The notes below the pieces were generated by a model. That model worked only from the letters and a program-made list of their open reading frames with translations. It did not search any database and was not told the origin of the DNA. From positions 1 to 64,000 of the IMG/VR virus record IMGVR_UViG_3300034280_001042: 64,000 nucleotides of DNA. One strand, given 5' to 3'. The DNA comes from a virus. The translations under genes and the position numbers were made by a program. The stretch's first letter is position 1; each line of letters opens with the position of its first letter. Positions 26,842 to 58,654 of this stretch are shown here, in pieces.

Positions 26842-26844
26842 CAA

Positions 26845-28418: not shown

Positions 28419-28419
28419 A

Positions 28420-29001
28420 ATGATAAAAAACGAAACCAATTGGTTCAATTATGCTAATTTTTACGAGTTTATAGCAGAGCAAAATTTTAAAACTTTTGTT
28501 GAAGTTGGCGTATTTTTTGGCTTGTCAATTAGTTTTTTAGCCCAAAAAGTCAAAAGCAAAGATGGCGTAAAAATATACGGAGTTGATTTATTTGAAACTT
28601 GGGCGGGAAAAGAACAAATTGAATATTTGTATGACATAAAAGGCTTGTCTGACAAAGATAGATTGGAAAAACTTGGTGAATACAAGTATAATTTCGTTGT
28701 CAATAGATTAAATGAAGTTGGATGTAATCATTTTGTTGAACTTATAAAAAGCGATAGTTCTGCTGCCGCCTCGTTGTTTGAAAATGAATCATTAGATTTT
28801 GTTTTTATAGACGGAAACCACTGGTACGATTATGTAAAAAAAGATATAGAAGCATGGTTGCCCAAAATTAAAAAAGGTGGTATTATTTCTGGACATGACT
28901 ATCAAGCGGCGGGAGTTTCAACTGCGGTAGGAGAGACCTTTGGCGATTCGGCTAAAGTTTTTAAAGAATCTCGATCCTGCTGGTATGTGGATATCAAATA
29001 A
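28420..29001 (+). CDS. Class I SAM methyltransferase (Methyltransf_24-like), paralog of 24074
   Basis: VEVGVFFG.S, FIDGNH.Y and GGIISGHDY. Confidence 0.85.
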   Translation: MIKNETNWFNYANFYEFIAEQNFKTFVEVGVFFGLSISFLAQKVKSKDGVKIYGVDLFETWAGKEQIEYLYDIKGLSDKDRLEKLGEYKYNFVVNRLNEVGCNHFVELIKSDSSAAASLFENESLDFVFIDGNHWYDYVKKDIEAWLPKIKKGGIISGHDYQAAGVSTAVGETFGDSAKVFKESRSCWYVDIK

Positions 29002-29762: not shown

Positions 29763-29775
29763 TTAGGAACAAAAA

Positions 29776-31107: not shown

Positions 31108-31871
31108 TGAACAAAAAATTAGCATTCATATATACTTATGGTAGGATAGGATCTACAAGTTTATTTCGTAGCATATCTAATAAAACAGATGCTCATCATT
31201 TTCATAATTTCAAACCATATTTTGACAACCATCTGAATACAACAAATAATTATACTAATATAGAACAACTATTATCTTCTCAGGAATCTATCTATATAGT
31301 CACGGGGGTACGCGACCCTATAGCCAGAACAATATCTGCTCTTTTTACATGGATCACCAAAGAAGGCAGACTCAATAATTTAACTCAGTATTCTGGAGGA
31401 GGTAAGTACTTTTTAGGCCATAATAAAGAAGAAATCAAAAAGCTTGATATTAATTTGATAATACAGAAACTTTTAAACTGTTTGTCTAACGATAATATGT
31501 TTGATCAAAAAGACTGTTGGTTCAATAATAATATTCGTAATTTTTTTGATATAGATATATATAATTATTCATTCAATACCAACCAAGGATATATTCTGAT
31601 TAATCAAGATAAATATAAAACTCTAGTATATAGGCAGGAAAACTTAAGAGATAATCATGAAATGGTTAATTCTTGGTTGAACACAAGCGATATTTTGCTG
31701 GTGTCAGAAAATGAATCCAAAACCAAGTGGTACTATGACTTATACAAACAGCTATTAGAAAATATAAAATTTTCTCAAGAAATCTTGGATAAAGTATATG
31801 ATAATAAAAAAATTCGTCATTTTTATAGCGATACAGAAATATCTAACTTTTATAAGTATTATCTTTCATGA
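31107..31871 (+). CDS. Sulfotransferase-fold protein (capsular polysaccharide synthesis NKWYS-type)
   Basis: GRIGSTS (5'-PSB-like), VRDPIARTIS (3'-PB-like), N.S..KWY..LY and HFYS..EI. Confidence 0.7.
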   Translation: MNKKLAFIYTYGRIGSTSLFRSISNKTDAHHFHNFKPYFDNHLNTTNNYTNIEQLLSSQESIYIVTGVRDPIARTISALFTWITKEGRLNNLTQYSGGGKYFLGHNKEEIKKLDINLIIQKLLNCLSNDNMFDQKDCWFNNNIRNFFDIDIYNYSFNTNQGYILINQDKYKTLVYRQENLRDNHEMVNSWLNTSDILLVSENESKTKWYYDLYKQLLENIKFSQEILDKVYDNKKIRHFYSDTEISNFYKYYLS

Positions 31872-32566
31872 AAGAACCTAAAGAACCCACTAACGAATGG
31901 CGGCTGTCTTCTGATTATGATGAAGCAATTCATCTTAACGGTGGATATACTCTAGCTCTTGGATATTGCTATCTTAATAGACTAGAATATCTTTTTAAAC
32001 AGAATAATAGAAGGCTATTCCAGTTCAGAACCAAGTGGGGCTGGTGTGGTGTGAATTTTTTATTCTCTGCTATGCGGCCCGATAATATACTGATTATTAA
32101 CTCTTGGGCTAATTCTGCTATGGTTGCTAAGTCTCATACTACGCTATTTTATGTTTGGTCAGCTATTTTAAGAAACATATTAGAGGTCAGAGGACCAGAT
32201 AATAAGCCGATACCAACTATGATCATTGATATGCCAGCAGCTATCCATAGACATCTAAACTTAGAGGACAGCACAATAGATAAAACCAAATTCCTACAAA
32301 ATAGAGAAAAATATAAAGCTAAAATTATTGATCCAATTATATCTGATAATCCTAGTCATATTAGATATATTGATCTTCTCGACTATTTTTCGGCAGAGTG
32401 GGAGATGATAATAGAAAATCAAAAAAATGAGCATAATAGATCTCCTTGGCATATATCTGATCAGGTATTAGACACCATCTTTAGTCACTTTTTACAATTT
32501 ACCAATAATGCCGAACACTATTCTCACATGAATCTGATCAAAGACTTAAAACAACTAAAATTATGA
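31868..32566 (+). CDS. Hypothetical protein (possibly SGNH-like)
   Basis: ORF coupled to both neighbours; LGYC and a C-terminal PWH give only a weak hint. Confidence 0.45.
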   Translation: MKEPKEPTNEWRLSSDYDEAIHLNGGYTLALGYCYLNRLEYLFKQNNRRLFQFRTKWGWCGVNFLFSAMRPDNILIINSWANSAMVAKSHTTLFYVWSAILRNILEVRGPDNKPIPTMIIDMPAAIHRHLNLEDSTIDKTKFLQNREKYKAKIIDPIISDNPSHIRYIDLLDYFSAEWEMIIENQKNEHNRSPWHISDQVLDTIFSHFLQFTNNAEHYSHMNLIKDLKQLKL

Positions 32567-33417
32567 AAACCAAAATAGCAGATCAAAACTATAGCAAGCC
32601 TATACCCACAGCTGTAGATGGTAATAATCTATTAATAGATAAATTAAAATCTGATAAAATATTTTTCGCTGGTAGATCTGGTGGAACAGAGTGTGAGATC
32701 GTTCAAAAAATTTATAGATATAAAGAAAAAGTTCCACACCACGTTAGAGAGAGAGCATTTAAAGTAGCAGGAATATATCCTTTAACAGATGATAATTACC
32801 AAAAATTTGTAGATACATATATAAGAGGAATTAGAACTCTTGACGTTGTTGGAGTTTGGGGTGTTATTGGTTACGATTGGTTAGTAGATACCTTTTGTCC
32901 AGAAGCAGATTATATTAGATTAACTAGTCTAGAGCCTTATTATTTCCCAGATAATCCATGGAGTGCTTTTTTACAGGACAAGAAAATTCTAGTTATTCAT
33001 CCATTTGTTAATAGCATACAAAATAATTTTCTTAAAAGAGAACATCTTTTTAGAGAGACAAAAATTTTACCAAATTTCTATCTTACAACCTTAAAAGCCG
33101 ACCAAAATTATGGTAAACAAGCTGATTGGTTTGAGAGCTTAGATAAAATGAAGAATGAAATACTAAATATAGATTTTGATATAGCGATTATTGGGTGTGG
33201 CGCTTTTGGGTTGCCTTTAGGATCTTTTATTAAGGAAGTAGTTAAAAAAACAGCGATTCATTTAGGAGGTCCAGTTCAGATATTATTTGGTGTTATGGGC
33301 AGGAGATGGGAAACCAACAGCGGTATTATGAGGTTCCACAACGAATACTGGACACGACCTTTGCCCGAAGAAACTCCGGAATCTTATATGTCTGTAGAAA
33401 AAGGATGTTACTGGTAA
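32563..33417 (+). CDS. GT-D-fold-like polysaccharide biosynthesis protein
   Basis: R.GGTE, LEPYY..PW, LVIHPF, IIGCGAFGLPL and HLGG..QILFG. Confidence 0.6.
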   Translation: MKTKIADQNYSKPIPTAVDGNNLLIDKLKSDKIFFAGRSGGTECEIVQKIYRYKEKVPHHVRERAFKVAGIYPLTDDNYQKFVDTYIRGIRTLDVVGVWGVIGYDWLVDTFCPEADYIRLTSLEPYYFPDNPWSAFLQDKKILVIHPFVNSIQNNFLKREHLFRETKILPNFYLTTLKADQNYGKQADWFESLDKMKNEILNIDFDIAIIGCGAFGLPLGSFIKEVVKKTAIHLGGPVQILFGVMGRRWETNSGIMRFHNEYWTRPLPEETPESYMSVEKGCYW

Positions 33418-45491: not shown

Positions 45492-46213
45492 TATTAGGAA
45501 TATCTGGAAGAAAACAGTCCGGTAAAAGTACTACTGGAAATTTTATATACTCTATCTATATGTCTAATCTTGGCATATCCAATAAAGTATATATCAACGA
45601 GTATGGACAAATTATAGTATCTGATTTATTGGGGGATACTAATTATGCTGGAGTATTTGATCCTACCAATCATTATGGTAATAACGACTATATTATTTCC
45701 CAAGTGTTTGAAAAATTAGCTCCATATATTAAGATATATAATTTTGCAGATGTCTTGAAGAGGGATATTTGTATGAATATTCTTGGATTAACCTATGATC
45801 AATGTTATGGTTCTGATGAAGAAAAAAATGCGCCAACGAACCTTCAATTAGACGGTAAGTGTCTATCAGCCAGAGATATTTTACAATATATAGGAACCGA
45901 CGTATTTCGTAAAATTAAACCAGACGTTTGGGTGGAAGCTACGATTACTAAAATAAAGAAAGATAAACCAGAGTTAGCTATTATTACAGACTGCAGATTT
46001 CCAAATGAAGTAGACATAGTTAAAAATAATAATGGTAAAATTCTGAGACTTTCAAGAGATTTGCATCATTCTGACCACATTAGCGAAACCATCTTAGATC
46101 CAGAAAATTATAATTGGACAAATTTTGATTTTGTATTAAATAATGATAATATGTCCATATTAGAACAACTAACAGAAACCAAAAATATTTTAGAGGAGAT
46201 ACTAAAATTATAA
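45485..46213 (+). CDS. Deoxynucleoside monophosphate kinase
   Basis: GISGRKQSGKST, FAD.LK, R..LQ.IGT and ITDCRFPNE. Confidence 0.85.
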   Translation: MLILGISGRKQSGKSTTGNFIYSIYMSNLGISNKVYINEYGQIIVSDLLGDTNYAGVFDPTNHYGNNDYIISQVFEKLAPYIKIYNFADVLKRDICMNILGLTYDQCYGSDEEKNAPTNLQLDGKCLSARDILQYIGTDVFRKIKPDVWVEATITKIKKDKPELAIITDCRFPNEVDIVKNNNGKILRLSRDLHHSDHISETILDPENYNWTNFDFVLNNDNMSILEQLTETKNILEEILKL

Positions 46214-47247
46214 TCACATACTTTCGAAGTAGTTCATATAATACCCACAGTCTTTGTGAGCAACAATATTTTATTGAATATGTTCTTGGATGGAGAGGTC
46301 CGTCTGGTCAAAAGGCCGATAAAGGAACTATTGTCCATAAGGTTTTAGAAATTTTAGCTGTCATTAAAAAAGGACAGCAAGACGGTATGACCGAAATAGA
46401 CGATGATGTAGTTGGCCATATTGATGTGAATAATTATAATCTGGATACTATCACACAAAAAGTATACAAGCACTACACAGAGAGATCTCCGCATCACAAG
46501 TGGGCACCTAAAGACTATAAGGATTGTCATTCCTGGGTTTATAAGGCAATCGAATTAAATAATGGCATGTTTGATCCTAGAAATCGTAATATTTTAATGC
46601 CAGAACAACATTTTGATTTTGAAATAAAAAAACCATGGTCTAAATACTCTTATAATCTTACAGACGGTTCTGTATTAGAGGGTAATTTGGCCATGAAAGG
46701 TACTATTGATTTAATAACTCTTGTTAATAAAGATACTATCGAGGTAATTGACTGGAAAACAGGTAAAAGATTAGACTGGGCAACGGGACAAGAAAAAACC
46801 CAAGAAAAGCTTGAGAACGATCCACAACTAAGAATTTACCACTATGCCATTAAACACTTATATCCTGATATTAAAAACATTATATTCTCTATCTATTTTA
46901 TTAATGATGGTGGACCTTTTTCTATTTGTTTTCATGATAGCGATATTGCTGAAACAGAAAATATACTTCGTAGAAAATTTGATATAATAAAACAAACTAC
47001 TAAACCTAAACTTAATAAGTCTTGGATGTGTAGTAAACTGTGTCATTTTGGTAAGACTACTTTTGCTAATACTAGTATCGAACCTGTTATCGAGTATAGA
47101 AATGGTCAGTTGTGCTCAAAGGACACGACCATGACAAAGTGCGAACAAATAAAACACGATCTAGACTTATATGGAATCGACGCTACTATAGGGCTATACA
47201 AGCACCCGAATCACTCCTTTGGATCATACAAAGCTCCCGGAACATGA
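46207..47247 (+). CDS. Cas4/RecB-like PD-(D/E)xK exonuclease; probable non-canonical ATT start
   Basis: Frame is open upstream of ATG 46387 and encodes IITYFRSSSY..HSLCEQQY..GTIVH..LE; GTIDL, IDWKTG, QL.IY and C-terminal Cys cluster; GAGGAG lies 8 nt before ATT 46207. Confidence 0.8.
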   Translation: MIITYFRSSSYNTHSLCEQQYFIEYVLGWRGPSGQKADKGTIVHKVLEILAVIKKGQQDGMTEIDDDVVGHIDVNNYNLDTITQKVYKHYTERSPHHKWAPKDYKDCHSWVYKAIELNNGMFDPRNRNILMPEQHFDFEIKKPWSKYSYNLTDGSVLEGNLAMKGTIDLITLVNKDTIEVIDWKTGKRLDWATGQEKTQEKLENDPQLRIYHYAIKHLYPDIKNIIFSIYFINDGGPFSICFHDSDIAETENILRRKFDIIKQTTKPKLNKSWMCSKLCHFGKTTFANTSIEPVIEYRNGQLCSKDTTMTKCEQIKHDLDLYGIDATIGLYKHPNHSFGSYKAPGT

Positions 47248-49109
47248 AACAATACATCCCTTTGCATGTACATTCTCATTATAGTCTTATGGATGGTCTT
47301 AGTAAGCCAGCTCAAATAGCAACTAGATGTGCTAAAATTGGAGTTCAATCTTGTGCTATTACTGATCATGGATCTATTTCTGGAACAGTACAGTTTTATC
47401 AAGCACTTAAGAAACAAAAGATAAAACCAATACTAGGTTGTGAGCTATATATTTCTAAAGACAATAGTTCATTAAAAGTCAAAGAAAATAGCAAACTAAG
47501 TCACTTTTTAGTTTTGGCTAAAAACTATGCTGGGTGGAAAACCTTGATTAATATTGTTTCAGAATCTAACTCAGAATCTAACTTTTATCATAAGCCAAGA
47601 CTAGACTTTAAAACACTATCCAAGCTATTAGATGGTAATATTATAGGATTTTGTGGTCATTTGGGATCCAGTCTAGCTAATCTAATTCAAGAATCCACAG
47701 ATTCCATAGAAAAGTCTGGCACAGAATTCATTGCTCAAATGAAAGATATTTTTGGTCAAGACAATTTCTTTCTAGAAGCACAACTAATGGATAGAGAGTA
47801 TTCTAAAGAACAAATAGAAATGACAGAGCATATTAGAAGGCTTGGTCAAATAACTAATACTAAAGTAATCTGTACTCCAGATGCCCATTATTGTGAAAAA
47901 GAAGACGCTATTGATCAACGCATATTACTATGTAATAATCTTAAAACAACACTAATTGATGTCAATAAAAAAATTCTTAACGATGAATCTGTAGCTATGG
48001 ATTGTTTTTTTAAGTCAGATAATTTCCATATTCTAAGTCCAGAAGAAATGGCAAGTCTACATACAGACGAAGAAATAGAAAATACTAACTATGTAAATTC
48101 ATTATGTGAAGAATACGATATTCTACACAAACCTCTTCTTCCAGAATTTAAATGTCCGCCAAACTTTAATCCCGACGAATATCTAAGAGAACTATGTCGT
48201 AAAGGATGGAGAGAAAAAATAGATAAGCAAATAGCTAAAGAAGACCATCAACAGTATGTAGATAGAATCAAATTTGAACTAGAAATCTTACAAGGTGCCG
48301 GATTATCTAGTTACTTTTTAATTGTGCAAGATATTGTTAATCTCGTTAGATCTAAGGGTTGGTTGCCGGGTCCGGGTAGAGGTTCTGCTGCTGGATGTTT
48401 AGTATCATATCTAATCGGAATCACGTCTATCAATCCTATAAAGTATGATTTGATCTTTGAAAGATTTTATAATGCTGGTAGAAACACATCAGACCATATC
48501 TCTATGCCAGATATTGATGTTGACGTACCCATTAATAAAAGAGAACAGATTATCTCATATATTAAAAACAAGTATGGTCACGATAAAGTATCTCAAATGA
48601 TTACATTTAATACTATGAAGGGTCGAGGAGCCCTAAAAGAAGTATTAAGAGTCTATGGTAATATTAGTTTCGACGAAATGAACCGTATAACTAAATACAT
48701 TCCGGATGAAGCTAAAATTGCAGACGAACTACAAGAGATGAAAGAAGATACTGGAGAAGCATCAATTATTCGATGGGCCTTAGAAAATAATGTTGACAAA
48801 CTCAAAGAATGGTGCTATATATCTGAAGACAATACACTAGCAGGCCCTCTTGCTAAAAGATTTGAACAAGCTATACGTTTAGAAGGAACAAAATCTAACC
48901 AATCGAAACATGCTGCTGGTGTAGTTATTAGTAGCGAAAATCTAAAACTTGTTTGTCCTATGATATATGATTCTAAGAACAAGCAGTCGATTGCTGGTAT
49001 GGAGATGCAAGATTTAGAAAGCCTTGGCGTGATTAAATTTGATATTCTTGGTATAGCTATGTTGGATAAAATTATGACTATAACAGATATCCTTAAAAAT
49101 GGAGAATAA
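47244..49109 (+). CDS. dnaE: DNA polymerase III alpha, N-terminal half (PHP plus palm/thumb)
   Basis: Start ATG 47244 (ATGA overlap); HVHSHYS, TDHG, DAHY, GRGSAAG, FERF, MPDIDVD, HAAGVV and KFDILG. Confidence 0.92.
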   Translation: MKQYIPLHVHSHYSLMDGLSKPAQIATRCAKIGVQSCAITDHGSISGTVQFYQALKKQKIKPILGCELYISKDNSSLKVKENSKLSHFLVLAKNYAGWKTLINIVSESNSESNFYHKPRLDFKTLSKLLDGNIIGFCGHLGSSLANLIQESTDSIEKSGTEFIAQMKDIFGQDNFFLEAQLMDREYSKEQIEMTEHIRRLGQITNTKVICTPDAHYCEKEDAIDQRILLCNNLKTTLIDVNKKILNDESVAMDCFFKSDNFHILSPEEMASLHTDEEIENTNYVNSLCEEYDILHKPLLPEFKCPPNFNPDEYLRELCRKGWREKIDKQIAKEDHQQYVDRIKFELEILQGAGLSSYFLIVQDIVNLVRSKGWLPGPGRGSAAGCLVSYLIGITSINPIKYDLIFERFYNAGRNTSDHISMPDIDVDVPINKREQIISYIKNKYGHDKVSQMITFNTMKGRGALKEVLRVYGNISFDEMNRITKYIPDEAKIADELQEMKEDTGEASIIRWALENNVDKLKEWCYISEDNTLAGPLAKRFEQAIRLEGTKSNQSKHAAGVVISSENLKLVCPMIYDSKNKQSIAGMEMQDLESLGVIKFDILGIAMLDKIMTITDILKNGE

Positions 49110-49111
49110 TT

Positions 49112-49297
49112 ATGGAGAAACAGTTCAGTCAATTAGCAGTAGGTGATAAGTTTATGGTAAATGGCGTACAATATGTTAAAGCAGTAGAAGTTAAAGTTAG
49201 TTGTTGCAAGTCGATCAACGCAACTGCTTCGGCTAACAGTAACGAGAAGACTTTTTTCCCAGGAAATACCCTAGTAACAGTGGAAACCAATGGCTAA
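49112..49297 (+). CDS. Small beta-rich protein inside the split dnaE locus
   Basis: GGAG RBS; its stop overlaps the exonuclease start; SCCK motif. Confidence 0.6.
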   Translation: MEKQFSQLAVGDKFMVNGVQYVKAVEVKVSCCKSINATASANSNEKTFFPGNTLVTVETNG

Positions 49298-49988
49298 TTT
49301 TCAAAAATTTTGTGTGTTCGATTTAGAGACAGATGGTTCTAATCCAGATGTCTGTAGTCCAGTACAAATTGCTGCTGTGATTATAGATCCTTTTAGATTA
49401 GAAATAGTGAAAGATTCAGAGTTTAATATCACACTAAAACCAGCAGCTTTGGAAGAAAAAGAAGAATACGCCTATGAAGATAGCGATGTTCTTGATTTTC
49501 ATGCCAAAGTAAGGGGGTGCGCTAAAGACAAGATTCTATCAGATTGGCATTCTTATCAGAAACAAGAGCATGGATGGAAGATGTTTGTATCTTACCTAGA
49601 TATGTATCATACAAGGTCCGATAGAAAATCTTGCTTTAGTGCCCCTATTGCTGCTGGATATAATATTAACAGATTCGACTTAAAAATCATAGATAGATTA
49701 AGTCAGAAATATAAGAACATCAATAAGGAAGGAAAATCCAGTCTTTTTTATCCAAGAGACGTTGTGGATTTAATGAATGTTGTATTTTATTGGTTCGAAG
49801 GTAATAACGAACTCAAAAATTACACACTAGACCATGTAAGAGATTACTTTGGTTTAAGCAAAGAAGGTTCACATGATGCTCTTAAAGATGTTAAAGACAC
49901 AGCAGAGCTTTTGATTAGGTTTATGAGACTATTTAGGAACACATCATCTAAGGTAAAATTTAAAGGATCGTGTACAGCAAATGGCTGA
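49290..49988 (+). CDS. DEDDh 3'-5' exonuclease (DnaQ/epsilon-like)
   Basis: ExoI FDLET, ExoII YN..RFD and ExoIII HDAL.D. Confidence 0.9.
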   Translation: MANFQKFCVFDLETDGSNPDVCSPVQIAAVIIDPFRLEIVKDSEFNITLKPAALEEKEEYAYEDSDVLDFHAKVRGCAKDKILSDWHSYQKQEHGWKMFVSYLDMYHTRSDRKSCFSAPIAAGYNINRFDLKIIDRLSQKYKNINKEGKSSLFYPRDVVDLMNVVFYWFEGNNELKNYTLDHVRDYFGLSKEGSHDALKDVKDTAELLIRFMRLFRNTSSKVKFKGSCTANG

Positions 49989-51606
49989 GTATTATACTTT
50001 TGATTGCGGTTGTAAATTTCCTGTTATTTCTCAGTCTGGTGAATTCCCTAAAATTGATTTTACTCCAAATGTAGAGAATCTAAATTTAGATTGCCAAAGA
50101 ACATGGGAACTGATATCAGAAGGAAATACAAAAGGTTGTTTTCAGCTAGAGTCTAGGTTAGGCCAAACGATGGCCCGTAAGCTTAAACCAGAAAATATGG
50201 AACAGCTATCTGGTCTGATCAGTATTCTTAGACCAGGATGTTTGGAAGCCTATAGAGATGGCAAAAGCGTATCTAATCACTATATAGATAAAAAGAATGG
50301 ATCTGAGTCAATTGACTTTTTCCATCCTGCTCTTGAAGAATCTTTAAAGAGTACCTACTCAGAAATGGTCTACCAAGAACAGGCTATGCAAATCTCACAA
50401 AAAATTGCGGGATTTGATCTTCAAGAAGCCGATATGTTAAGAAAAGCTATTGGGAAAAAGAAACCAGAAGAAATGGCTAAGGTTAAAAAGAAATTCATTG
50501 AGGGAGCAAAAAAGGTTAAAATTGTTGACGAATCTGAAGCAGAAGAGATTTTCGGTTGGATAGAAAAATCTCAGAGATATAGTTTTAATAAGTCCCACGC
50601 GATTTCATATGCTATTAATGCTTATATGTCAGCATATGCGAAAGCACACTTCCCAAGAATCTTTTTTGCATCATATCTAAGATTTGCTAAAGACAAAATA
50701 GATCCTCAACAGGAAATAAAAGAGCTGGTTAGAAATGCAACCGAAATGGATATTATTGTTTCTATTCCAGATATACGATATCTAAACGAATTCTTTATTC
50801 TCAAGAATAAGATTATTTATTTTGGATTAACAGATATCAAAGGGGTTGGTCAATCTGTCTTTAAGAAGATATTAAGCTTAACAAAAGAAATAGACCTCAA
50901 AACCGCAACATGGCTACAAATCCTAACTCAACTACTGCTCAATATTAATTCAACAGCAAGTAAAGCATTGATCTCTGCTGGGGCTTTGGACTATTTAAAA
51001 AAGAATAGAACAGAGATGCTATTTGAATATGATATATGCTCTTCTTTAACTAAAAAAGAATTACAGCTTTTAATGGAAATAATATCAGAAAGCAATCCCA
51101 AGAACCTCAAAGAAGCATTAGGTTCTATGTTGTTAATCAAAAAAGTGACTAAAAATAGGCAACCTAATATTCAAGCTTTAATTCAGTCTATAGATAAACC
51201 TCCATATTCTTTGCTAGATAAAATTGAGTGGTTATCTGACTCTGAGAATTCTTTACTTGGCACAGCAATAACCTGTTCCAAGCTGGATACTTATGATACT
51301 AGTATGTCAAACTGTAACTGTAAAACATTTAAAACTACTTTTACCAAAGAAAATATTGTTTTAGCTGCCGAAATTAGTAATATCAATATTACCAAAACCA
51401 AAAACGGTAAAAATCCAGGACAAGAAATGGCCTTTCTCACAATTGAAGATCAGTACGGAGTATTGGATTCTGTTGTCTTTTTTCCAGAACAATTAGCTAA
51501 ATATAAACATCATTTATTTGTTGAGAATATTCTCGTTTTTGTAGGAAATAAAAGCAAGACCAAAGACGGTCTTATAGTAGAAAAATGTTTCATCCCAGTC
51601 ACTTGA
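49981..51606 (+). CDS. dnaE: DNA polymerase III alpha, C-terminal half (fingers, HhH, OB)
   Basis: T.GCFQLES, RPG, VYQEQ.M, AD.LRKAIGKKK, YSFNKSHA.SY, FGL..IKGVG and MAFLT.ED. Confidence 0.92.
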   Translation: MAEYYTFDCGCKFPVISQSGEFPKIDFTPNVENLNLDCQRTWELISEGNTKGCFQLESRLGQTMARKLKPENMEQLSGLISILRPGCLEAYRDGKSVSNHYIDKKNGSESIDFFHPALEESLKSTYSEMVYQEQAMQISQKIAGFDLQEADMLRKAIGKKKPEEMAKVKKKFIEGAKKVKIVDESEAEEIFGWIEKSQRYSFNKSHAISYAINAYMSAYAKAHFPRIFFASYLRFAKDKIDPQQEIKELVRNATEMDIIVSIPDIRYLNEFFILKNKIIYFGLTDIKGVGQSVFKKILSLTKEIDLKTATWLQILTQLLLNINSTASKALISAGALDYLKKNRTEMLFEYDICSSLTKKELQLLMEIISESNPKNLKEALGSMLLIKKVTKNRQPNIQALIQSIDKPPYSLLDKIEWLSDSENSLLGTAITCSKLDTYDTSMSNCNCKTFKTTFTKENIVLAAEISNINITKTKNGKNPGQEMAFLTIEDQYGVLDSVVFFPEQLAKYKHHLFVENILVFVGNKSKTKDGLIVEKCFIPVT

Positions 51607-51630
51607 CACCAACCCGACTCCAAATATAAT
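51603..51630 (+). promoter_or_regulatory. Consensus sigma70 promoter for ssb (TTGACA-16 nt-TATAAT)
   Basis: Perfect -35 (overlapping the dnaE-C stop) and perfect -10. Confidence 0.8.
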
Positions 51631-51681
51631 ACTCATGGCGTTTGAGTTTTTTTGAGTTTAAACTTTTAGGAGAATATTCAT

Positions 51682-52056
51682 ATGAATATTACTTTGCTTC
51701 GAGGGAATTTAGCTAGAGATCCAGAATTGCGTATTGTTAACACTTCAGGTAAGCAAACATCTGTGGTCAACTTTACTGTTGCAGTATCTAGAGAGTATGT
51801 GAAGGCTAGCGGAGATAAGGATAAGATTACTTCCTTTATTAACTGTGAAGCCTGGGATACCGGGGCTGAGATGATTGCAGAATCCTTTAAGAAGGGTGAT
51901 CTAGTAATGATTGAGGGATCTTTACGAAATGACTCGTGGGAAAAAGACGGTGTGAAACACAGCAGCTTGAAGGTTAGAGTAAATAACTTTTCAAAGATCG
52001 CTAAGCTATCACGACCAAGTAGTAAAACAGAAAATGCTGAGTCTGTAGCTTTCTGA
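51682..52056 (+). CDS. ssb: Single-stranded DNA-binding protein
   Basis: L.GNL.RDPELR, F.VAV, CEAW, KG..V.IEG.L..W and a short tail ending AF; AGGAG RBS. Confidence 0.93.
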   Translation: MNITLLRGNLARDPELRIVNTSGKQTSVVNFTVAVSREYVKASGDKDKITSFINCEAWDTGAEMIAESFKKGDLVMIEGSLRNDSWEKDGVKHSSLKVRVNNFSKIAKLSRPSSKTENAESVAF

Positions 52057-52079
52057 ACATAATTCATCCAGGAAAAAGC

Positions 52080-52110
52080 AGAATACGGGGGCGAAAGCCC
52101 CCTTATTTTG
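52080..52110 (+). terminator. Intrinsic terminator after ssb
   Basis: GGGGGC-GAAA-GCCCCC hairpin (52087-52102) followed by TTATTTT. Confidence 0.75.
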
Positions 52111-52120
52111 TATCTATAAT

Positions 52121-53785
52121 ATGTCAAACAAACTTAAAATCTTAATGTGTTCCGAAGCTAGTTTTTTAAATTCTGGATTTGGAACGTATACCAAAGAACT
52201 ACTCTCTCGTCTTCATAAAACCAACAAATATGTTATTGCAGAATTTGCTTCTTATGGTTTTGTCAATGACCCAAGAGACAAAGACATTGAGTGGACCTAC
52301 TACGCAAACGCTGTAAAAGACACGGACCCTAGACATAAAGAATATACGTCTAGAGGAGATAACCAATTTGGTCGATGGAGATTTGAGAAAGTTCTATTAG
52401 ATTTTAAGCCAGATGTAGTTATTGATATTAGAGACTATTGGATGACAGCATACCAAGAAACGTCGCCTTTGCGTAAGTATTTTCATTGGATTCTGATGCC
52501 AACAGTGGATTCTGAACCACAACAAGAGGACTGGATAGATACCTTCTTATCGGCAGATGCTATTTTTACATATTCTGATTGGGGTGCAGAAGTTCTTAAA
52601 AAACAAAGCTCCAACAAGATTAAATATATTGATACTGTTTCTCCAGGAGTTGATTTAAATACATTTAAGATCAAAGACAGAACAGCTATAAAAAAAGCAG
52701 CAGGATTCAAAGATAATGACATTATCATTGGTTCTGTCATGAGAAATCAAAAAAGGAAACTCTTTCCAGAACTGCTAACATCTTTTCGCTCTGTCTTAGA
52801 TAATCTTGAAAATACTAATCCAGAACTTGGCTCAAGACTATTTTTATATCTACATACCAGCTATCCAGATATGGGATGGGATATTCCCGAACTCTTAAAG
52901 GATACTAGATTAGCTAACAAGGTTTTCTTTTCGTATGTATGCAAAAGTTGCAAAAATACTAGCTGTAATGTTTATAGTGGTGTTCAAACAGTTTGTCAAA
53001 AATGTTTGCACAAAACATGCGGTATGCCATCTGTTACAGATGGATTTAGCTCATCAAATTTAGCAGACGTATATAATCTGTTCGATCTTTACGTTCAATA
53101 TTCCATATGTGAGGGATTTGGGATGCCTCAAGTGGAGGCCGGGGCCTGTGGAGTACCCGTTGCAACGGTTGATTATAGTGCTATGTGCGACGTTATTAAA
53201 AAGCTCGATGCCTTCCCAATCAGGGTTAAAACCAAGTTCAAGGAACTCGAAACCAAAGCATTAAGAGTATATCCAGATAATGATCACTTGGCCAGTATTA
53301 TCTTAGATTATATACAGTTACCAGAAGATATTAGAAACAATAAAAGACAAACAATTAGAAAATTGACAGAAAAATATTATGATTGGGATCAAGTAGCCGA
53401 AACATGGGAAAAGTATCTGGATAGCTTAGACCAATCAGGGTTCAGATCAAATTGGGACTCTAAAGCCCAGACGATTGGCCCAATACAAAAATCTCAAAAT
53501 ATTAATCGTCACGATCATTTCGAAACACTATTATCAACCTGTAGCTATCCTTTCAACAAACCGGACATGATAGCATCTGCAAAAATTCTAGGTATGCTAC
53601 GAGATGCTGATTATGGATTTGCTCAAGGCGGACCAACTCAAATTATTCCTTTTGGATATAACAACATAGAAGACTATTTACAAATCTTGGTTAATAATCA
53701 AAACCATGCTGAGAAGGTCAAAGAAGACAAAGTTTCTTTTGACGAAGATTTTATCCTATACGCAAAGCTGAAGAATCAAAAATGA
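52121..53785 (+). CDS. GT4-family (GT-B) glycosyltransferase with a Cys-rich insertion
   Basis: SGFG, PGVD, RNQKRK, YNLFD and EGFGMP.VEA.ACG.P; CKSC..C..CQKC..C insert. Confidence 0.85.
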   Translation: MSNKLKILMCSEASFLNSGFGTYTKELLSRLHKTNKYVIAEFASYGFVNDPRDKDIEWTYYANAVKDTDPRHKEYTSRGDNQFGRWRFEKVLLDFKPDVVIDIRDYWMTAYQETSPLRKYFHWILMPTVDSEPQQEDWIDTFLSADAIFTYSDWGAEVLKKQSSNKIKYIDTVSPGVDLNTFKIKDRTAIKKAAGFKDNDIIIGSVMRNQKRKLFPELLTSFRSVLDNLENTNPELGSRLFLYLHTSYPDMGWDIPELLKDTRLANKVFFSYVCKSCKNTSCNVYSGVQTVCQKCLHKTCGMPSVTDGFSSSNLADVYNLFDLYVQYSICEGFGMPQVEAGACGVPVATVDYSAMCDVIKKLDAFPIRVKTKFKELETKALRVYPDNDHLASIILDYIQLPEDIRNNKRQTIRKLTEKYYDWDQVAETWEKYLDSLDQSGFRSNWDSKAQTIGPIQKSQNINRHDHFETLLSTCSYPFNKPDMIASAKILGMLRDADYGFAQGGPTQIIPFGYNNIEDYLQILVNNQNHAEKVKEDKVSFDEDFILYAKLKNQK

Positions 53786-54777
53786 ATACAATATATCTAG
53801 GACCATATAGAGATAATACAATTAATGGGGTGTGGTCGTATAATATTTTATCCAGCCTATTAGAACATCCAAACCATCAAGTAACTTGCAGACCAATATA
53901 CTTAGAATCATCAAATGTAAGTACTCGCAATCCTAGAAATAACGATTCTGCTATATCGGCAGCAGAACATACCATTCAGTCAACATATGACTGCTTGATT
54001 CAACATATACGTCCAGAAAATATTGTTTCTAATAAATCTCTTAAAAATATTTGTATACCAATTATAGATAGTGAATTTTTATCTCATAAAGCTATTACCA
54101 ATCTTAAGAATTGTGATTTAATTCTAGTTGATAATGCATTAAATTTCCAAAAGTTATCTACCATACTTGAACAAACCTCAAACATAGAGCTATTTCAATA
54201 TGGGGTTGATACTAATTATGGCAATGATACATATGATTTTGGTCCATATTCGTATATGAAAAAAATGTATACGATAGCGAATTATGCTGCAAATTCTGAT
54301 CTTTATAGCGATCTTTTGATAGACTTTATTATTTTGACACAAAAATATGAAAACTTATGTTTGGTTTTATTTGTTGTAGATTCCGGAGGGTCTATACAAG
54401 AAATACAAAAGATAATAGATAAAACATATGAGAGCCTCAATATAATAGCTTCGCTCAAAAAGATTTGTATTATACCAATCTTACCAACTATAGAAAATCT
54501 GGTTTCTTGTCATAAAATATGTGATATGTATTTGAATATTAACGATGACATTCGTAGCACAGCAAACTCTGCATATGCGTATGCCTTAGATAAGCCAACA
54601 ATTGAACACCATAATCTATCGTTTCAAATGACCCCTATAAGAAATAGTAAAATTAGTAAACATTGGTACGATGTCCCATCTAATCAGAGTATAATGACAG
54701 CTATGCAAAATATTTTATCTAATCCAACTAAGGGTCAGTTTTTACCAAATTCAAAATCTCTGGAATTGTTTTTATGA
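53782..54777 (+). CDS. Divergent GT-B-like protein
   Basis: YLGPYRD, H..P and H..CD.YL; weak match. Confidence 0.45.
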   Translation: MNTIYLGPYRDNTINGVWSYNILSSLLEHPNHQVTCRPIYLESSNVSTRNPRNNDSAISAAEHTIQSTYDCLIQHIRPENIVSNKSLKNICIPIIDSEFLSHKAITNLKNCDLILVDNALNFQKLSTILEQTSNIELFQYGVDTNYGNDTYDFGPYSYMKKMYTIANYAANSDLYSDLLIDFIILTQKYENLCLVLFVVDSGGSIQEIQKIIDKTYESLNIIASLKKICIIPILPTIENLVSCHKICDMYLNINDDIRSTANSAYAYALDKPTIEHHNLSFQMTPIRNSKISKHWYDVPSNQSIMTAMQNILSNPTKGQFLPNSKSLELFL

Positions 54778-55643
54778 GTTCTAACTTTGTCTATAATACG
54801 CTTAATAAATTATTAGATAGTAATATTAATATATTATATGAACCAAATCAAAGCTTATTTGATGTTGTATTTCCTGAAATAGACGCAACAATATTACGAA
54901 CAGAATCAGCTTCTTCTAAGTATTTTTACTATGATGCTTATGTAACCAGTAATTTTTTCTCTCATGTAAATTATAGAAATAAATTCTTACACAATCATCA
55001 AACTCAAGACGTTGTAATCTTTCATCAAAAAACCCCAAATGTATTTAAAAAAGAAGATAAAACGATATTAAGAAACAATTTGTCTTCTGCCTATAAAATA
55101 TTTCCAACCAGCGTTATTGCAGACGAGTGGGGAATACAAGATAAAAAATCAATAACTATTAATTATGGAATACCAAGTATAAAACATGAATTAATACCAT
55201 TTAAAAACAGAAATACTGTTTTATTTATGAATTTTAATGATGATACAAATGTAAATAATTTATTTGCTAGTATTAAAACATTTTTCCCTGATGCTATTTT
55301 AATAAACAAATTAGTAAATAACAGTTTAGAAGAAACACTTAAATTAATATCCAACTATAAAATAGTTATAGATTTAGCACATCCATTCAACGCCCTATGT
55401 GCAACAGCTTGTGGGTGCTTCACTGTAACTAATCAGATTAGTGATGATTCAATTAAGTCTTGCTTGGTTACACAGAATTTTAGAGACGCAAAAGAATTAC
55501 TATCGGATATTATTAATAACGCTAATACCGATTTAATTGAAAAAGATAAAGAGTACATTATAATGAATTATTCAATGAACATCTTTATAGATAATATGAC
55601 AAAACTATTTAATAGAATCAAAATGGAGCCATTCATAATATGA
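54774..55643 (+). CDS. Divergent GT-B-like protein
   Basis: I.YGIP, YKIVID and A.ACGC. Confidence 0.45.
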   Translation: MSSNFVYNTLNKLLDSNINILYEPNQSLFDVVFPEIDATILRTESASSKYFYYDAYVTSNFFSHVNYRNKFLHNHQTQDVVIFHQKTPNVFKKEDKTILRNNLSSAYKIFPTSVIADEWGIQDKKSITINYGIPSIKHELIPFKNRNTVLFMNFNDDTNVNNLFASIKTFFPDAILINKLVNNSLEETLKLISNYKIVIDLAHPFNALCATACGCFTVTNQISDDSIKSCLVTQNFRDAKELLSDIINNANTDLIEKDKEYIIMNYSMNIFIDNMTKLFNRIKMEPFII

Positions 55644-56053
55644 AACGTAATATTCATTTGTGTAATATTCACAGTAAACAAGTATCAGATGCTGAACCAG
55701 TAGACATATCTACTATTTCTAGTGTTGTTAATTTGTCTGTCGATACTATTTTTTGCGATTCTTTAGAGTCTATAGCAGCAGAAGATTTGTCTAAAAAATT
55801 TGTAGAAATATTAAACAAAATCCGACCTAATGGATATCTGATATTAAATATCTTAGACATAAAAAAACTTTGCTCAGAGTACTTACAAAATACTATTTCA
55901 AACCAAGTTTTCTTATCACTAATCAAAGACAAAAATAATTTTATTAGTATAGATAATATATATTCTTTAATAGACACTAAACATTTTCAAATTATGAAAA
56001 TCGATACTGATCAAAATACTATTTCTGTAGTTATTCAAAGGACAAAAATATGA
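55640..56053 (+). CDS. Degenerate methyltransferase-like protein
   Basis: VD.I...LE.I..KIRPNG.LIL...D; no glycine-rich motif I. Confidence 0.4.
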   Translation: MKRNIHLCNIHSKQVSDAEPVDISTISSVVNLSVDTIFCDSLESIAAEDLSKKFVEILNKIRPNGYLILNILDIKKLCSEYLQNTISNQVFLSLIKDKNNFISIDNIYSLIDTKHFQIMKIDTDQNTISVVIQRTKI

Positions 56054-56802
56054 CAGCAACATCTTGTAAGGACTGTGTTTTTGCTCATTCAATTAATTCT
56101 ATTAAGTCATGTGATTTTAATCTTATTGATAGTATAAAAAATACTAGAGATATAGAAACTAAAGACAATTATAACTATATTCCAAACTATCACTGTAAGT
56201 ATGGCCTATCTAAAAAAACATATTACGCCAATAAGGATAAGTTTGAAGAAATTGATTTGATGAACTATATTCGACATAGAAATCTAATAAAATATTATCT
56301 TGTCATAGATTTAGAAGACGAGACTAATATTGAAGCATTATGCTTACATATCAATTCTTTATCGATTAAACCTGATTTTGTTTCTATATTAGCCTATGCA
56401 TCTGATATGGCTGATCTTATAGAAGTTATCAAAACTAACATTGGTTCGGATATAAGGTGGAAACTGCACAATTTAATAAATAAAGACATGGATCATAGTC
56501 TTGCTTTAAAGGTTGCTTTAGATACGAGTCCTATTCTTGATAAAACACAGTTTATCTGGATTAATAGATCATCTGATATGCAATATATAGCTGAGTCTGA
56601 TATTGTATCTAAAATTAACTATATCGTAAATATAGAGCAGCCTGTTTGTAATTTTGTTGGCTCTCAAATCTTATCAAGCGATAATTTCCATAATTTATTG
56701 ATGTCTGTTGCCACATACAAACACATTATTAAACATATTTCCTCTTCCTTAGCAGATGGCATAAAGCAATTAGGAACAACAGTAACAGCTTATTATGATT
56801 AA
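56050..56802 (+). CDS. Hypothetical protein with a Cys-rich N-terminus
   Basis: CKDCVFA..C..C. Confidence 0.55.
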   Translation: MTATSCKDCVFAHSINSIKSCDFNLIDSIKNTRDIETKDNYNYIPNYHCKYGLSKKTYYANKDKFEEIDLMNYIRHRNLIKYYLVIDLEDETNIEALCLHINSLSIKPDFVSILAYASDMADLIEVIKTNIGSDIRWKLHNLINKDMDHSLALKVALDTSPILDKTQFIWINRSSDMQYIAESDIVSKINYIVNIEQPVCNFVGSQILSSDNFHNLLMSVATYKHIIKHISSSLADGIKQLGTTVTAYYD

Positions 56803-57469
56803 TGTTTTAGTTTTAATACCAGAAATAACAAAGGGAATGAAATCCATTGGATCAAAATCTTTGTTAAAAATTAAAAACTCTAAATCTATCATAGAACACC
56901 AAATCGAACTATTGCTTTCTATGAAGAATAAAGTCTCTATTAATATTGCAACAGGATTTGATAATGACAAAATAAATAAAACTATAGATAAATACAAAAA
57001 TATTAATATCATATATAATGATCAATATGAAAATACTAATTATGGTAAATGTATAAAATTATTCATACAACAAAATCCGAATATTGATAATTTATTTGTG
57101 ATCGGGAGCGGTATTCTTTTTAAAGAGAATATTTTTTCGCAAAGTTCTTTTGGTAATATATCTAGAATTTTTATATTAGACAAACCAGCCAATAATTTTA
57201 ACATAGGATGTAATCCCAATAAAAATATTGAATATTTGTTTTATGATTTACCAGAGCCTTGGGCAGAGTGTGTGTATTTCGATCTTTCCGGAATCGGAGG
57301 ATTGAAAACTTTAATAGAACAGAAAAATATAGATCAGATGTATATTTTTGAAATAATCAACGATTTATTATTATTGAATATAGATTTTCAGAAAGAGTAT
57401 TTTTCTAGAAGCAAGTTTTTTAAAATATCTAGTACAAAAGACATAAATAGGGCTAAATTATTTATATGA
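56795..57469 (+). CDS. Nucleotidyltransferase-like protein (LicC/NTP_transf fold)
   Basis: GMKSIG.KSLL.I, IE.QI, TGF and N..Y..TN. Confidence 0.6.
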   Translation: MINVLVLIPEITKGMKSIGSKSLLKIKNSKSIIEHQIELLLSMKNKVSINIATGFDNDKINKTIDKYKNINIIYNDQYENTNYGKCIKLFIQQNPNIDNLFVIGSGILFKENIFSQSSFGNISRIFILDKPANNFNIGCNPNKNIEYLFYDLPEPWAECVYFDLSGIGGLKTLIEQKNIDQMYIFEIINDLLLLNIDFQKEYFSRSKFFKISSTKDINRAKLFI

Positions 57470-58194
57470 GTATATTATTTATTCAGGATTCGGATAATAA
57501 GTTCGTTAATAATATAAAATTAACACAGATTCCAAACCACCAGATAATGTTTGGTCCTATAAATCAAAATTTATATGGTTTATACTATAATTATCGTTTT
57601 AGTCATTTGATACTCATGGCTTCTATGCTGGACCAAGAAACTCTACAGTTTGTGTCAGAATATCATGCAGAAATTAAATGCTATGTATATAGCGATATTT
57701 ATATAAGTCCTAATATAGTAGAGCTATATAAGAATAAGGTTACTTTTATCTTAAGAAACAAACAGAATCATATCTCTAAAGATAATTCTATTATACTACC
57801 TAAACTAGTGAACGAAGAACTCTTTAATAGTCTCAATCAATCGCCAAACAGACATAATTCTATTATTTGTTTTATAGATCATTTAGATAAAATTCCTGAC
57901 TCATTAAATCAATATTTATATCCAATGACAAAGCTACCAATTAAATTATTTAATAATAGTAACATAAAACATCATCAAAACCTAGGAACTCTATCAGAGA
58001 TAGACAAAGCATCTATGCTGCAACAGGTTCGATATTATCTTACTATTGACGAGCACTATCTTGCTGAAGCTTGGGCTGGAGGATGCGATGTTTTGACTAT
58101 AGAGGAATTAGACCTAATACAACCCAAAAAATATAAACATAAAAAACAATGTCAAACATATAAAAGCTTTATGGAGAATTTTTTAAATGCTTAA
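57466..58194 (+). CDS. Divergent GT-B-like protein
   Basis: QNLG.LSE and Y..EA.AGGC. Confidence 0.4.
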   Translation: MSILFIQDSDNKFVNNIKLTQIPNHQIMFGPINQNLYGLYYNYRFSHLILMASMLDQETLQFVSEYHAEIKCYVYSDIYISPNIVELYKNKVTFILRNKQNHISKDNSIILPKLVNEELFNSLNQSPNRHNSIICFIDHLDKIPDSLNQYLYPMTKLPIKLFNNSNIKHHQNLGTLSEIDKASMLQQVRYYLTIDEHYLAEAWAGGCDVLTIEELDLIQPKKYKHKKQCQTYKSFMENFLNA

Positions 58195-58654
58195 ATCGTC
58201 AGATATCGGTTTTGTATCGCTAAAGCTTACTAATACTAGTTTTTATGAAAATCTACTACAAACAGCAAGACAATTTATAGATAATCAACCATACAATCAA
58301 ATTGTGGTATTTAATAGTTTTTGTGATAAAATAGATACTCATTCTGTGCCAATATTACACCTTAACCATGCTAAGTTTTTTAATGGGAATCTTATATTGT
58401 TTGATTTGGCTAGTGTTCTTTTAACACAAAGCTTCACTAATATTAAAAAACGATTTCTTTATACTAAAGACACTCCATGGGCTACTTCGCCAACTACTAA
58501 GTATACCGAATGGTTAAAGTTATATGGGTCTAGTAATCTTGATATTATTGTTCCAAACCACCAACTATATGATATATACAGCATATGTTGGAAACAACCA
58601 GTAGGAATATCGGAGAATTTTCATTATGAAGAAATCAAAAATTTTATACTCTAA
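58187..58654 (+). CDS. Hypothetical protein
   Basis: Coupled ORF; GGAG RBS. Confidence 0.55.
   Translation: MLKSSDIGFVSLKLTNTSFYENLLQTARQFIDNQPYNQIVVFNSFCDKIDTHSVPILHLNHAKFFNGNLILFDLASVLLTQSFTNIKKRFLYTKDTPWATSPTTKYTEWLKLYGSSNLDIIVPNHQLYDIYSICWKQPVGISENFHYEEIKNFIL

What the first reader, a model, noticed from the sequence alone, without database searches (positions are those of the whole stretch)
47244..51606. Intein-free split DnaE with the proofreading exonuclease gene and a 61-aa ORF nested between the halves
Seen: the N-half ends ...KFDILGIAMLDKIMTITDILKNGE* just after the third catalytic Asp. The C-half begins with a ~20-aa CGC-containing extension and resumes at PKIDF...LDCQRTWELISEGNTKGCFQLES. 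Established: in E. coli DnaE the segment KFDFLGL...KNGEPPLDI...FQLES is continuous, so the break falls in the loop after the palm and essentially nothing is missing. Neither half has intein motifs, unlike cyanobacterial split dnaE. The small ORF/exonuclease and exonuclease/dnaE-C junctions use near-identical 8-nt overlaps (ATGGCTAA, ATGGCTGA), consistent with coupled, stoichiometric synthesis. Inference: a 3-4 subunit C-family replicase that assembles non-covalently, with the 61-aa protein as a possible theta-like or assembly subunit.
Basis: partly seen in the sequence, partly recalled or inferred. Interest (0 to 1): 0.8.

Follow-up and report, generated by a model that had tools for sequence, protein, structure and literature searches.

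The report
Intein-free split phage DnaE polymerase
An uncultured jumbo phage encodes its only recognisable DNA polymerase (a bacterial-type Pol III alpha) as two separate genes cut at the palm/fingers border, with a small gene and a proofreading-exonuclease gene in between; the layout is real and widespread in related environmental phages, but it is a variant of known split phage polymerases.

Summary
dnaE-N (47244-49109, PHP and palm), a 61-aa ORF (49112-49297), a DEDDh DnaQ-like exonuclease (49290-49988) and dnaE-C (49981-51606, fingers, HhH and OB) sit exactly as described. The 8-nt overlaps are there, and only about 7 profile positions of DnaE are missing at the break.

There is no intein or intron signal. 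All 61 IMG/VR relatives with enough flank keep the order N-S-X-C, including complete 197-244 kb genomes with no PolA or PolB match. This rules out misassembly and decay.

A whole-database search shows that N-halves ending at this same site dominate the 150 closest cluster representatives (37-68% identity). A few fused forms are nested among them. One cultured phage, Rossellomorea phiT1, is split at the same site.

The most likely mechanism is a non-covalent two-chain alpha with a composite active site, made from one operon together with its exonuclease.

The 61-aa protein is confined to this clade and evolves faster than its neighbours. It folds as an SH3/Tudor-like barrel, not a theta-like helix bundle, so its role as a subunit is unproven.

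This is a new variant of a known kind. Known relatives of the idea are split T4-type gp43, split phiKZ PolB, minimal split Pol III alpha and split-intein DnaE. This scan had also noted the same stretch once before (e1-6012911).

The parts
47244..49109 (+). dnaE-N: PHP domain plus palm, 621 aa. Carries all three catalytic Asp (D423, D425 in PDIDVD; D600 in KFDILG). PHP metal-ligand positions are occupied (H8, H10, D17, H42, E67, H87, H139, D213, H215). Ends ...ILKNGE*. Its start overlaps the stop of the upstream PD-(D/E)XK nuclease gene by 4 nt.
   Evidence: The alignment to Taq Pol III alpha (2hpi) runs to chain residue 627.
49112..49297 (+). S: 61-aa ORF with a five-strand SH3/Tudor/KOW-like beta-barrel and invariant F14, C31, C32. 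Starts 2 nt after the dnaE-N stop, with GGAGA 7 nt upstream. No Pfam, NCBIfam or PDB sequence match.
   Evidence: (AF2 pLDDT 91.5).
49290..49988 (+). X: DnaQ-like DEDDh 3'-5' exonuclease, 232 aa. Exo I is D11/E13, Exo II is D130, Exo III is H195/D200. Overlaps S by 8 nt (ATGGCTAA).
   Evidence: PF00929, 41.7 bits against cut-off 24; phrog_192; PolC exonuclease domain 2p1j.
49981..51606 (+). dnaE-C: fingers, HhH (beta-binding-type) domain and OB fold, 541 aa. Overlaps X by 8 nt (ATGGCTGA). No tau-binding C-terminal domain was matched; the profile match ends at 1052 of 1146.
   Evidence: AF2 pLDDT 86.7.
49981..50052 (+). Lineage-specific N-terminal extension of dnaE-C, about 24 aa. Predicted beta-hairpin with invariant F7-x-C9-G10-C11-x-F13. 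A further lineage-specific Cys (C38) follows at 50092-50094. The extension is absent from fused relatives.
   Evidence: present in distant L088; absent in L087; absent in fused forms.
51603..51630 (+). Perfect sigma-70 consensus (TTGACA-16-TATAAT) immediately after the dnaE-C stop. It marks the 3' limit of the replicase transcription unit. The scan found one weak terminator-like site (45518-45538) and no other on the + strand before 52087.

Best explanation
The phage's replicative C-family polymerase alpha subunit is made as two polypeptides that associate non-covalently. The cut lies about 20 residues after the third catalytic Asp, at the palm/fingers border (about E. coli alpha residues 575-585). 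The N-chain supplies the PHP domain and the three catalytic aspartates. The C-chain supplies the fingers, the HhH duplex-binding domain and the OB fold. The active site is therefore composite, and neither chain should polymerise alone. The four genes lie in one operon with near-zero or negative spacing, so the chains and the DEDDh exonuclease are made together and probably assemble into one proofreading polymerase. Shown here: gene anatomy, completeness of the two halves, absence of intein and intron signals, conservation, selection, and absence of other polymerase families in complete relatives. Inferred: physical association, stoichiometry, docking of the exonuclease, and any role of the 61-aa protein or of the CGC hairpin at the new N-terminus as a docking element. 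The role of the fingers motif LRKAIGKKK in dNTP binding rests on my own knowledge of Pol III alpha, not on a test here.
For: The halves abut on DnaE profiles with at most 7 positions missing and align to Taq and E. coli alpha up to and from the break. No intein domains, no intron and no convincing internal terminator were found. The order N-S-X-C holds in 61 of 61 relatives from independent metagenomes, and the S/X -8 overlap in 57 of 61. dN/dS is about 0.04 for N, X and C. Complete relatives of 197-244 kb have no PolA, PolB or beta-clamp match, so split DnaE is the only recognisable polymerase. In a phmmer search of 1.84 billion representatives, nearly all of the 150 closest proteins (37-68% identity) are 600-670-aa N-halves ending 14-25 residues after KFDILG. 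Four fused 1100-1400-aa forms exist and fall in two small clades nested among split forms (local support 0.84-0.98), so fused and split states interconvert. In distant split lineages the exonuclease gene still sits directly upstream of dnaE-C (L087, L088). Precedent: the split gp43 chains of Aeromonas phage 25 co-purify and have polymerase activity (PMC2988022), and phiKZ PolB is a 1:1 two-chain complex (PMC13648687).
Against: No protein-level evidence exists, and no multimer prediction could be run. S was not found near the distant split loci, and the exonuclease is not between the halves in phiT1, so neither is needed for the split as such. Only gene predictions from metagenomes support the fused and split states of distant relatives. 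The tree is midpoint-rooted on one region only.
Confidence: 0.8

Rival explanations
1. The 61-aa ORF is not a polymerase subunit. It is an unrelated small phage protein that settled in the gap between the halves, which acts as a landing site for extra genes. Only N, C and probably X form the enzyme.
For: No S homologue was found within about 6 kb in the distant split loci L087 and L088, in the fused locus L089 or in phiT1. The gap in L087 holds about 2.5 kb of unrelated genes including a LAGLIDADG endonuclease, and phiT1 has an unrelated 49-aa ORF there. S has dN/dS of about 0.43 against 0.04 for its neighbours. Its fold matches many small uncharacterised phage proteins, including N4 gp21.
Against: S is present in every relative of the clade. 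Its 8-nt overlap with the exonuclease gene is conserved in 57 of 61, the gap after dnaE-N is usually 2 nt, and the Cys pair is invariant. This tight coupling fits co-assembly.
Confidence: 0.45
2. The halves are joined after transcription or translation, by an unrecognised intron, a trans-splicing intein or ribosomal bypass, to give one full-length alpha.
For: Relatives of this DnaE group do carry inteins and split inteins at other sites.
Against: Neither half has a Hint or intein match. The N-half ends 21 residues after the catalytic Asp, with no room for an N-intein. The 24-aa C-half extension has no terminal HN+C/S/T. No Rfam intron was found. The 870-nt spacer encodes two conserved proteins, one under strong selection. 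Junction spacing varies among relatives, so a programmed frameshift is unlikely.
Confidence: 0.04
3. The gene is a disrupted, decaying dnaE, and the phage replicates with the host polymerase.
For: No clamp or clamp-loader match was found in the phage or in complete relatives, so host factors are probably used for processivity.
Against: Both halves are intact, keep all catalytic and PHP ligand residues, and are under strong purifying selection across relatives down to 37% identity. The phage also encodes its own DnaB, primase and SSB.
Confidence: 0.03
4. The two halves have separate jobs, for example the N-half as a PHP nuclease or phosphatase and the C-half as a DNA-binding factor, and do not form a polymerase.
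For: The PHP metal ligands are complete, so the N-half could have a nuclease activity of its own.
Against: The halves always co-occur in the same operon, evolve at similar rates and are found fused in nested relatives.
Confidence: 0.04

Closest known systems
Bacterial DnaE / Pol III alpha (E. coli, Thermus aquaticus; PDB 2hnh, 2hpi)
   Same: Same domain order: PHP, palm, fingers, HhH, OB. Same catalytic Asp triad. A separate DEDDh exonuclease is present, as with E. coli epsilon.
   Different: Here the chain is cut between palm and fingers into two genes. No tau-binding C-terminal domain was matched. No phage clamp or clamp loader was found. The exonuclease gene lies inside the split.
Cyanobacterial split-intein DnaE (DnaE-N/DnaE-C; NCBIfam NF007079 and NF005616)
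   Same: A C-family alpha subunit encoded by two genes.
   Different: The cyanobacterial halves are ligated by a split intein and are cut after the fingers. The window's C-half spans both models (residues 30-202 on NF007079, 201-534 on NF005616), so the break here lies about 200 residues upstream. There is no intein here.
Split B-family gp43 of T4-related Aeromonas phages (43A/43B) and the two-chain PolB of phiKZ
   Same: A phage replicative polymerase encoded as two cistrons without an intein. The chains co-purify or form a 1:1 complex and are active (PMC2988022; PMC13648687). The gaps can hold mobile elements.
   Different: Different polymerase family (B, not C) and a different cut site. No exonuclease gene lies between the halves.
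Minimal split Pol III alpha of group 2.2 jumbo phages (Iyer et al. 2021, PMC7824862)
   Same: A phage-encoded Pol III alpha catalytic module split into N- and C-terminal proteins.
   Different: That version is a minimal module without PHP and the other domains. It is encoded by distant genes and accompanies a family B replicase. Here a full-length DnaE is split within one operon and is the only polymerase detected.
Rossellomorea phage phiT1 gp20 / gp19 / gp18 (PV767480)
   Same: DnaE split at the same palm/fingers site, with a small ORF between the halves; annotated as two 'DNA polymerase III subunit alpha' CDS.
   Different: About 33% identity. Its 49-aa ORF is unrelated to S. There is no exonuclease between the halves and no CGC extension. 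The close relative Bacillus phage PK-1 is fused.
PolC of Firmicutes
   Same: A C-family polymerase with a DnaQ-type exonuclease placed within the polymerase coding region.
   Different: By my own knowledge, in PolC the exonuclease is a domain inserted in the PHP domain of one chain. Here it is a separate gene placed at the palm/fingers border.

Membership tests
C-family DNA polymerase, DnaE type (Pol III alpha) | N-terminal PHP domain | tested here: met
   PF02811 at 8.4e-38, N-half residues 7-180. The nine metal-ligand positions are occupied.
C-family DNA polymerase, DnaE type (Pol III alpha) | Pol-beta-like palm with three catalytic Asp | tested here: met
   PF07733 at 1.8e-73. PDIDVD (D423, D425) and KFDILG (D600) align to the Taq motifs.
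C-family DNA polymerase, DnaE type (Pol III alpha) | Fingers domain followed by HhH duplex-binding domain | tested here: met
   PF17657 at 1.5e-44 and PF14579 at 2.2e-9 in the C-half. It aligns to Taq 646-947 and E. coli 587-898.
C-family DNA polymerase, DnaE type (Pol III alpha) | OB fold after the HhH domain | tested here: inconclusive
   PF01336 scores 24.8 bits, below the cut-off of 27. The AF2 model shows a beta-rich C-terminal domain at 459-537.
C-family DNA polymerase, DnaE type (Pol III alpha) | C-terminal tau-binding domain and clamp-binding motif | tested here: inconclusive
   The PRK05673 match ends at 1052 of 1146. No clear QxxLF-type motif was identified by eye. No clamp or clamp-loader match was found in the genome or in complete relatives.
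C-family DNA polymerase, DnaE type (Pol III alpha) | Single continuous polypeptide | tested here: not met
   Two ORFs are separated by 871 nt that hold two genes. The same holds in 61 of 61 relatives.
Split-intein DnaE (cyanobacterial type) | N-intein at the end of the N-part and C-intein at the start of the C-part | tested here: not met
   No Hint or Intein_splicing hit at E<=0.01. The same search detects inteins in relatives P0129-P0131, P0144 and P0145. The tail and the extension are too short, and there is no HN+C/S/T.
Split-intein DnaE (cyanobacterial type) | Split site after the fingers domain | tested here: not met
   The window's C-half spans the NF007079/NF005616 boundary at its residue of about 201.
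DnaQ / epsilon-like DEDDh 3'-5' exonuclease | Exo I (DxE), Exo II (NxxxFD) and Exo III (Hx4D) motifs | tested here: met
   PF00929 at 41.7 bits against cut-off 24. FDLETDG, YNINRFD and SHDALKD are present. Local match to the PolC exonuclease domain 2p1j.
DnaQ / epsilon-like DEDDh 3'-5' exonuclease | Binds the polymerase (PHP domain) as its proofreading subunit | not testable with these tools
   No multimer prediction is available. Only gene linkage supports it.
Theta (HolE) subunit of Pol III core | Small three-helix-bundle protein that binds epsilon (fold known from my own knowledge) | tested here: not met
   The AF2 model of S (pLDDT 91.5) is five beta-strands with no helix. The best PDB matches are SH3/Tudor/KOW-like barrels at Z<=5.1. 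Binding was not testable.

The most novel reading that the evidence does not exclude
The intein-free cut at the palm/fingers border is the ancestral and dominant state of a very large, uncultured aquatic phage DnaE lineage. Covalent continuity was replaced by a dedicated docking element, the invariant CGC beta-hairpin at the new N-terminus, possibly a metal knuckle together with C38. In the window's clade the SH3-like 61-aa protein and the exonuclease are built in co-translationally. The result would be a four-chain proofreading polymerase that has re-fused to one chain at least twice.
Probability: 0.2. Interest if true: 0.65.

Novelty: new variant of a known kind. Interest (0 to 1): 0.5.

Why it matters
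Pol III alpha is the textbook single-chain bacterial replicase, and the known natural dnaE split in cyanobacteria is repaired by an intein. A large natural set of intein-free two-chain alphas, with fused and split forms interleaved on the tree, identifies a permissive cut site between palm and fingers. It offers ready-made material for studying how a composite C-family active site assembles. It also shows how mobile-element landing sites remodel replication genes, and how a proofreading exonuclease is recruited without clamp, tau or theta. For annotation, half-length 'DNA polymerase III alpha' calls in phage metagenomes should not be taken as fragments or pseudogenes.

Tried and rejected
- **Introns:** the Rfam E-value scan of 46000-52500 found no group I or II intron.
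- **Close cultured relatives:** the best N-half match in the phage collection is 34% identity, and the best TerL match is 25% or less.
- **Genomic context of distant representatives:** I used the search for related loci with P0135 (nothing), P0149 (1 locus) and P0265 (2 loci) instead.
- **S in databases:** no Pfam or NCBIfam match, only viral hypothetical clusters in the ESM Atlas, and no PDB match better than a generic SH3/Tudor fold. Two S homologues carry a precomputed PF26909 tag, which the local Pfam copy did not reproduce.
- **Inter-chain four-Cys site (CGC plus the S Cys pair, or N-half C571):** considered and set aside. L088 has CGC and C38 but no S nearby, and fused forms keep C571 but lack CGC.
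- **Literature:** the searches found no description of this exact layout. The library is incomplete, so this is weak evidence of novelty.
Full report
**What is there**

The window is the first 64 kb of a 91,971-bp IMG/VR virus record. CheckV estimates it at 66% complete. It has about 33% G+C, and almost all genes are on the + strand.

At the stated coordinates there are four tightly packed ORFs:
- dnaE-N, 47244-49109, 621 aa
- a 61-aa ORF, called S here, 49112-49297
- a 232-aa ORF, called X here, 49290-49988
- dnaE-C, 49981-51606, 541 aa

Upstream lie DnaB, primase, a dNMP kinase and a PD-(D/E)XK nuclease. The nuclease stop overlaps the dnaE-N start. SSB lies downstream.

The N-half stop TAA is followed by 2 nt and then the S start, with GGAGA 7 nt upstream. 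S/X overlap in ATGGCTAA, and X/C overlap in ATGGCTGA.

The consensus scan lists only one weak terminator-like site on the + strand upstream (45518-45538). The next is a strong hairpin at 52087, after SSB. A perfect sigma-70 consensus sits at 51603-51630, right after dnaE-C. The four genes therefore appear to end one replication operon.

**The two halves make one complete DnaE**

- The N-half has PHP (8e-38) and the Pol III alpha palm (2e-73). The C-half has fingers (1.5e-44), the HhH domain (2e-9) and a weak OB match.
- On phrog_405 the halves cover positions 41-615 and 622-1053 of 1190.
- On NCBIfam PRK05673 they cover 5-575 and 583-1052 of 1146.
- Against solved structures, the N-half aligns to Taq alpha up to residue 627. 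The C-half aligns from Taq 646 and E. coli 587.

The cut therefore lies about 20 residues after the third catalytic Asp, and essentially nothing is missing.

The N-half holds D423, D425 and D600, and all nine PHP ligand positions are occupied. The C-half holds the conserved fingers motif LRKAIGKKK. From my own knowledge of Pol III alpha ternary complexes, that motif contacts the incoming dNTP. If so, the active site is composite.

The first 24 or so residues of the C-half are extra. AF2 predicts a beta-hairpin there, with pLDDT about 80.

**It is not an intein, an intron or an artefact**

- Neither half has a Hint or intein match. The same search does find inteins in relatives.
- The N-half tail and the C-half extension are too short for intein pieces, and they lack the terminal HN+C/S/T.
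- Rfam finds no intron.
- The cyanobacterial split-DnaE models NF007079 and NF005616 meet at about residue 201 of the window's C-half. The cyanobacterial cut is therefore about 200 residues further downstream.
- IMG/VR holds 227 relatives of the N-half. In the best 80 (71-98% identity), every locus with enough flank (61) has N-S-X-C in this order.
- The S/X overlap is -8 nt in 57 of 61. The N/S gap is usually 2 nt. X/C ranges from -20 to +24 nt.
- dN/dS is about 0.04 for N, X and C and about 0.43 for S.

**The phage and its other replication genes**

Relatives include complete genomes of 197-244 kb; two of the three have direct terminal repeats. TerL has at most 25% identity to any cultured phage, so this is an uncultured jumbo-phage clade.

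These complete genomes give no PolA, PolB or beta-clamp match. The split DnaE is thus the only recognisable DNA polymerase. The window's own record has no clamp or clamp-loader match either.

**How far the split reaches**

A phmmer search of 1.84 billion cluster representatives gave 7,522 hits at E<=1e-30. Of the 150 best (37-68% identity), nearly all are 600-670-aa proteins that end 14-25 residues after the KFDILG strand. These are N-halves cut at the same site.

The exceptions fall into three groups:
- four fused forms of 1102-1396 aa
- two forms that end in an N-terminal split-intein piece after the fingers, which is the cyanobacterial-type site
- about fifteen N-halves with inteins inside

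On a FastTree of the N-half region, the fused and split-intein forms make two small clades nested among split forms, with local support of 0.84-0.98. This suggests re-fusion, or repeated splitting at one permissive site. The tree is midpoint-rooted, so the direction of change is not settled.

The C-half N-terminal region has 1,673 clusters at E<=1e-5. JGI annotates many of the listed ones simply as DNA polymerase III alpha.

**What lies in the gap in other lineages**

- **L087** (45% identity): dnaE-N is followed by about 2.5 kb of unrelated genes, including a LAGLIDADG endonuclease. X and dnaE-C come after that. There is no S and no CGC extension.
- **L088:** the N-half itself carries a split intein with a free-standing ORF between the intein pieces. 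About 3 kb of other genes follow, then X, then a C-half that begins MDYSFECGCKFP.
- **L089:** DnaE is fused (1134 aa), and X lies 2 kb downstream.
- **Cultured phages:** Rossellomorea phage phiT1 has gp20 (573 aa), an unrelated 49-aa ORF and gp18 (469 aa), cut at the same site with no exonuclease between. Bacillus phage PK-1, Streptomyces phage Anedea and Pseudomonas phage Y1 are fused.

So the cut site recurs, the X-then-C adjacency is widespread, and S is confined to the window's clade.

**The small protein and the extension**

S is a confident five-strand barrel (pLDDT 91.5). Its nearest PDB folds are SH3/Tudor/KOW/EF-P domain I at Z<=5.1. It resembles many small uncharacterised phage proteins in BFVD, including N4 gp21. 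It is not theta-like in fold. Its invariant residues are F14, C31 and C32.

The C-half extension has an invariant F-x-CGC-x-F motif plus C38. Fused relatives lack both.

I considered a shared metal site between CGC and the Cys pair of S. L088 has CGC but no S nearby, so that idea is weakened. A role of the hairpin in docking the two halves remains an untested inference.

**The exonuclease**

X meets the DEDDh definition: D11/E13, D130 and H195/D200, with PF00929 above its cut-off and a local match to the PolC exonuclease domain. Since the PHP ligands are also complete, the enzyme may have two potential proofreading sites. Which one is used is unknown.

**Comparison with what is known**

- Intein-free split replicative polymerases are established in phages for family B. 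The 43A/43B chains of Aeromonas phage 25 co-purify and are active (PMC2988022). The phiKZ PolB is a 1:1 two-chain complex (PMC13648687).
- Iyer et al. 2021 (PMC7824862) described a minimal split Pol III alpha in group 2.2 jumbo phages. It is encoded by distant genes and sits beside a PolB.
- Cyanobacterial DnaE is split but is ligated by an intein.
- I found no description of the layout seen here: a full-length DnaE cut at the palm/fingers border within one operon, with the exonuclease gene in the gap. GenBank records such as phiT1, and several PHROG families of partial DnaE, show that such pieces are already annotated.

I therefore rate it a new variant of a known kind, of moderate interest.

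**Limits**

- No multimer prediction or structure coordinates were available.
- The literature library is incomplete.

Noticed in passing
window 51603-51630 and 52087-52102: A perfect sigma-70 consensus promoter (TTGACA-16-TATAAT) sits directly after dnaE-C, and a strong GC hairpin terminator follows SSB. SSB therefore looks like its own, probably strongly expressed, transcription unit.
   Followed up: no
L088 5226-8356: In a distant relative the dnaE N-half carries a split intein (...GCGRG|CFTPDS... and ...GVHN|SAAGC...) with a free-standing 287-aa ORF between the intein halves. This is a 'fractured gene' layout on top of the palm/fingers split.
   Followed up: partly
L087 9433-10374: A LAGLIDADG-type homing endonuclease gene lies in the gap between dnaE-N and the exonuclease gene. 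The gap behaves as a landing site for mobile DNA.
   Followed up: partly
P0131, P0145 (database proteins, 881-891 aa): Phage-type DnaE relatives (46-52% identity) end in an N-terminal split-intein piece after the fingers. A cyanobacterial-type split site therefore also occurs in this phage lineage.
   Followed up: partly
window 47244-47900 (N-half PHP domain): All nine PHP metal-ligand positions are occupied (His139 takes the place of the usual Cys). The polymerase may have PHP proofreading as well as the DnaQ-like exonuclease.
   Followed up: partly
G001, G002, G003 (complete relatives, 197-244 kb): No beta-clamp, PolA or PolB Pfam match was found in complete jumbo-phage relatives. How processivity is obtained is open; it may come from the host clamp or from an unrecognised factor.
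   Followed up: partly
window 16161-33417 and 52121-58654: There are many glycosyltransferase-like genes, as earlier notes of this scan also say. Only one was touched here (phrog_14945 hit for 16161-18548).
   Followed up: no
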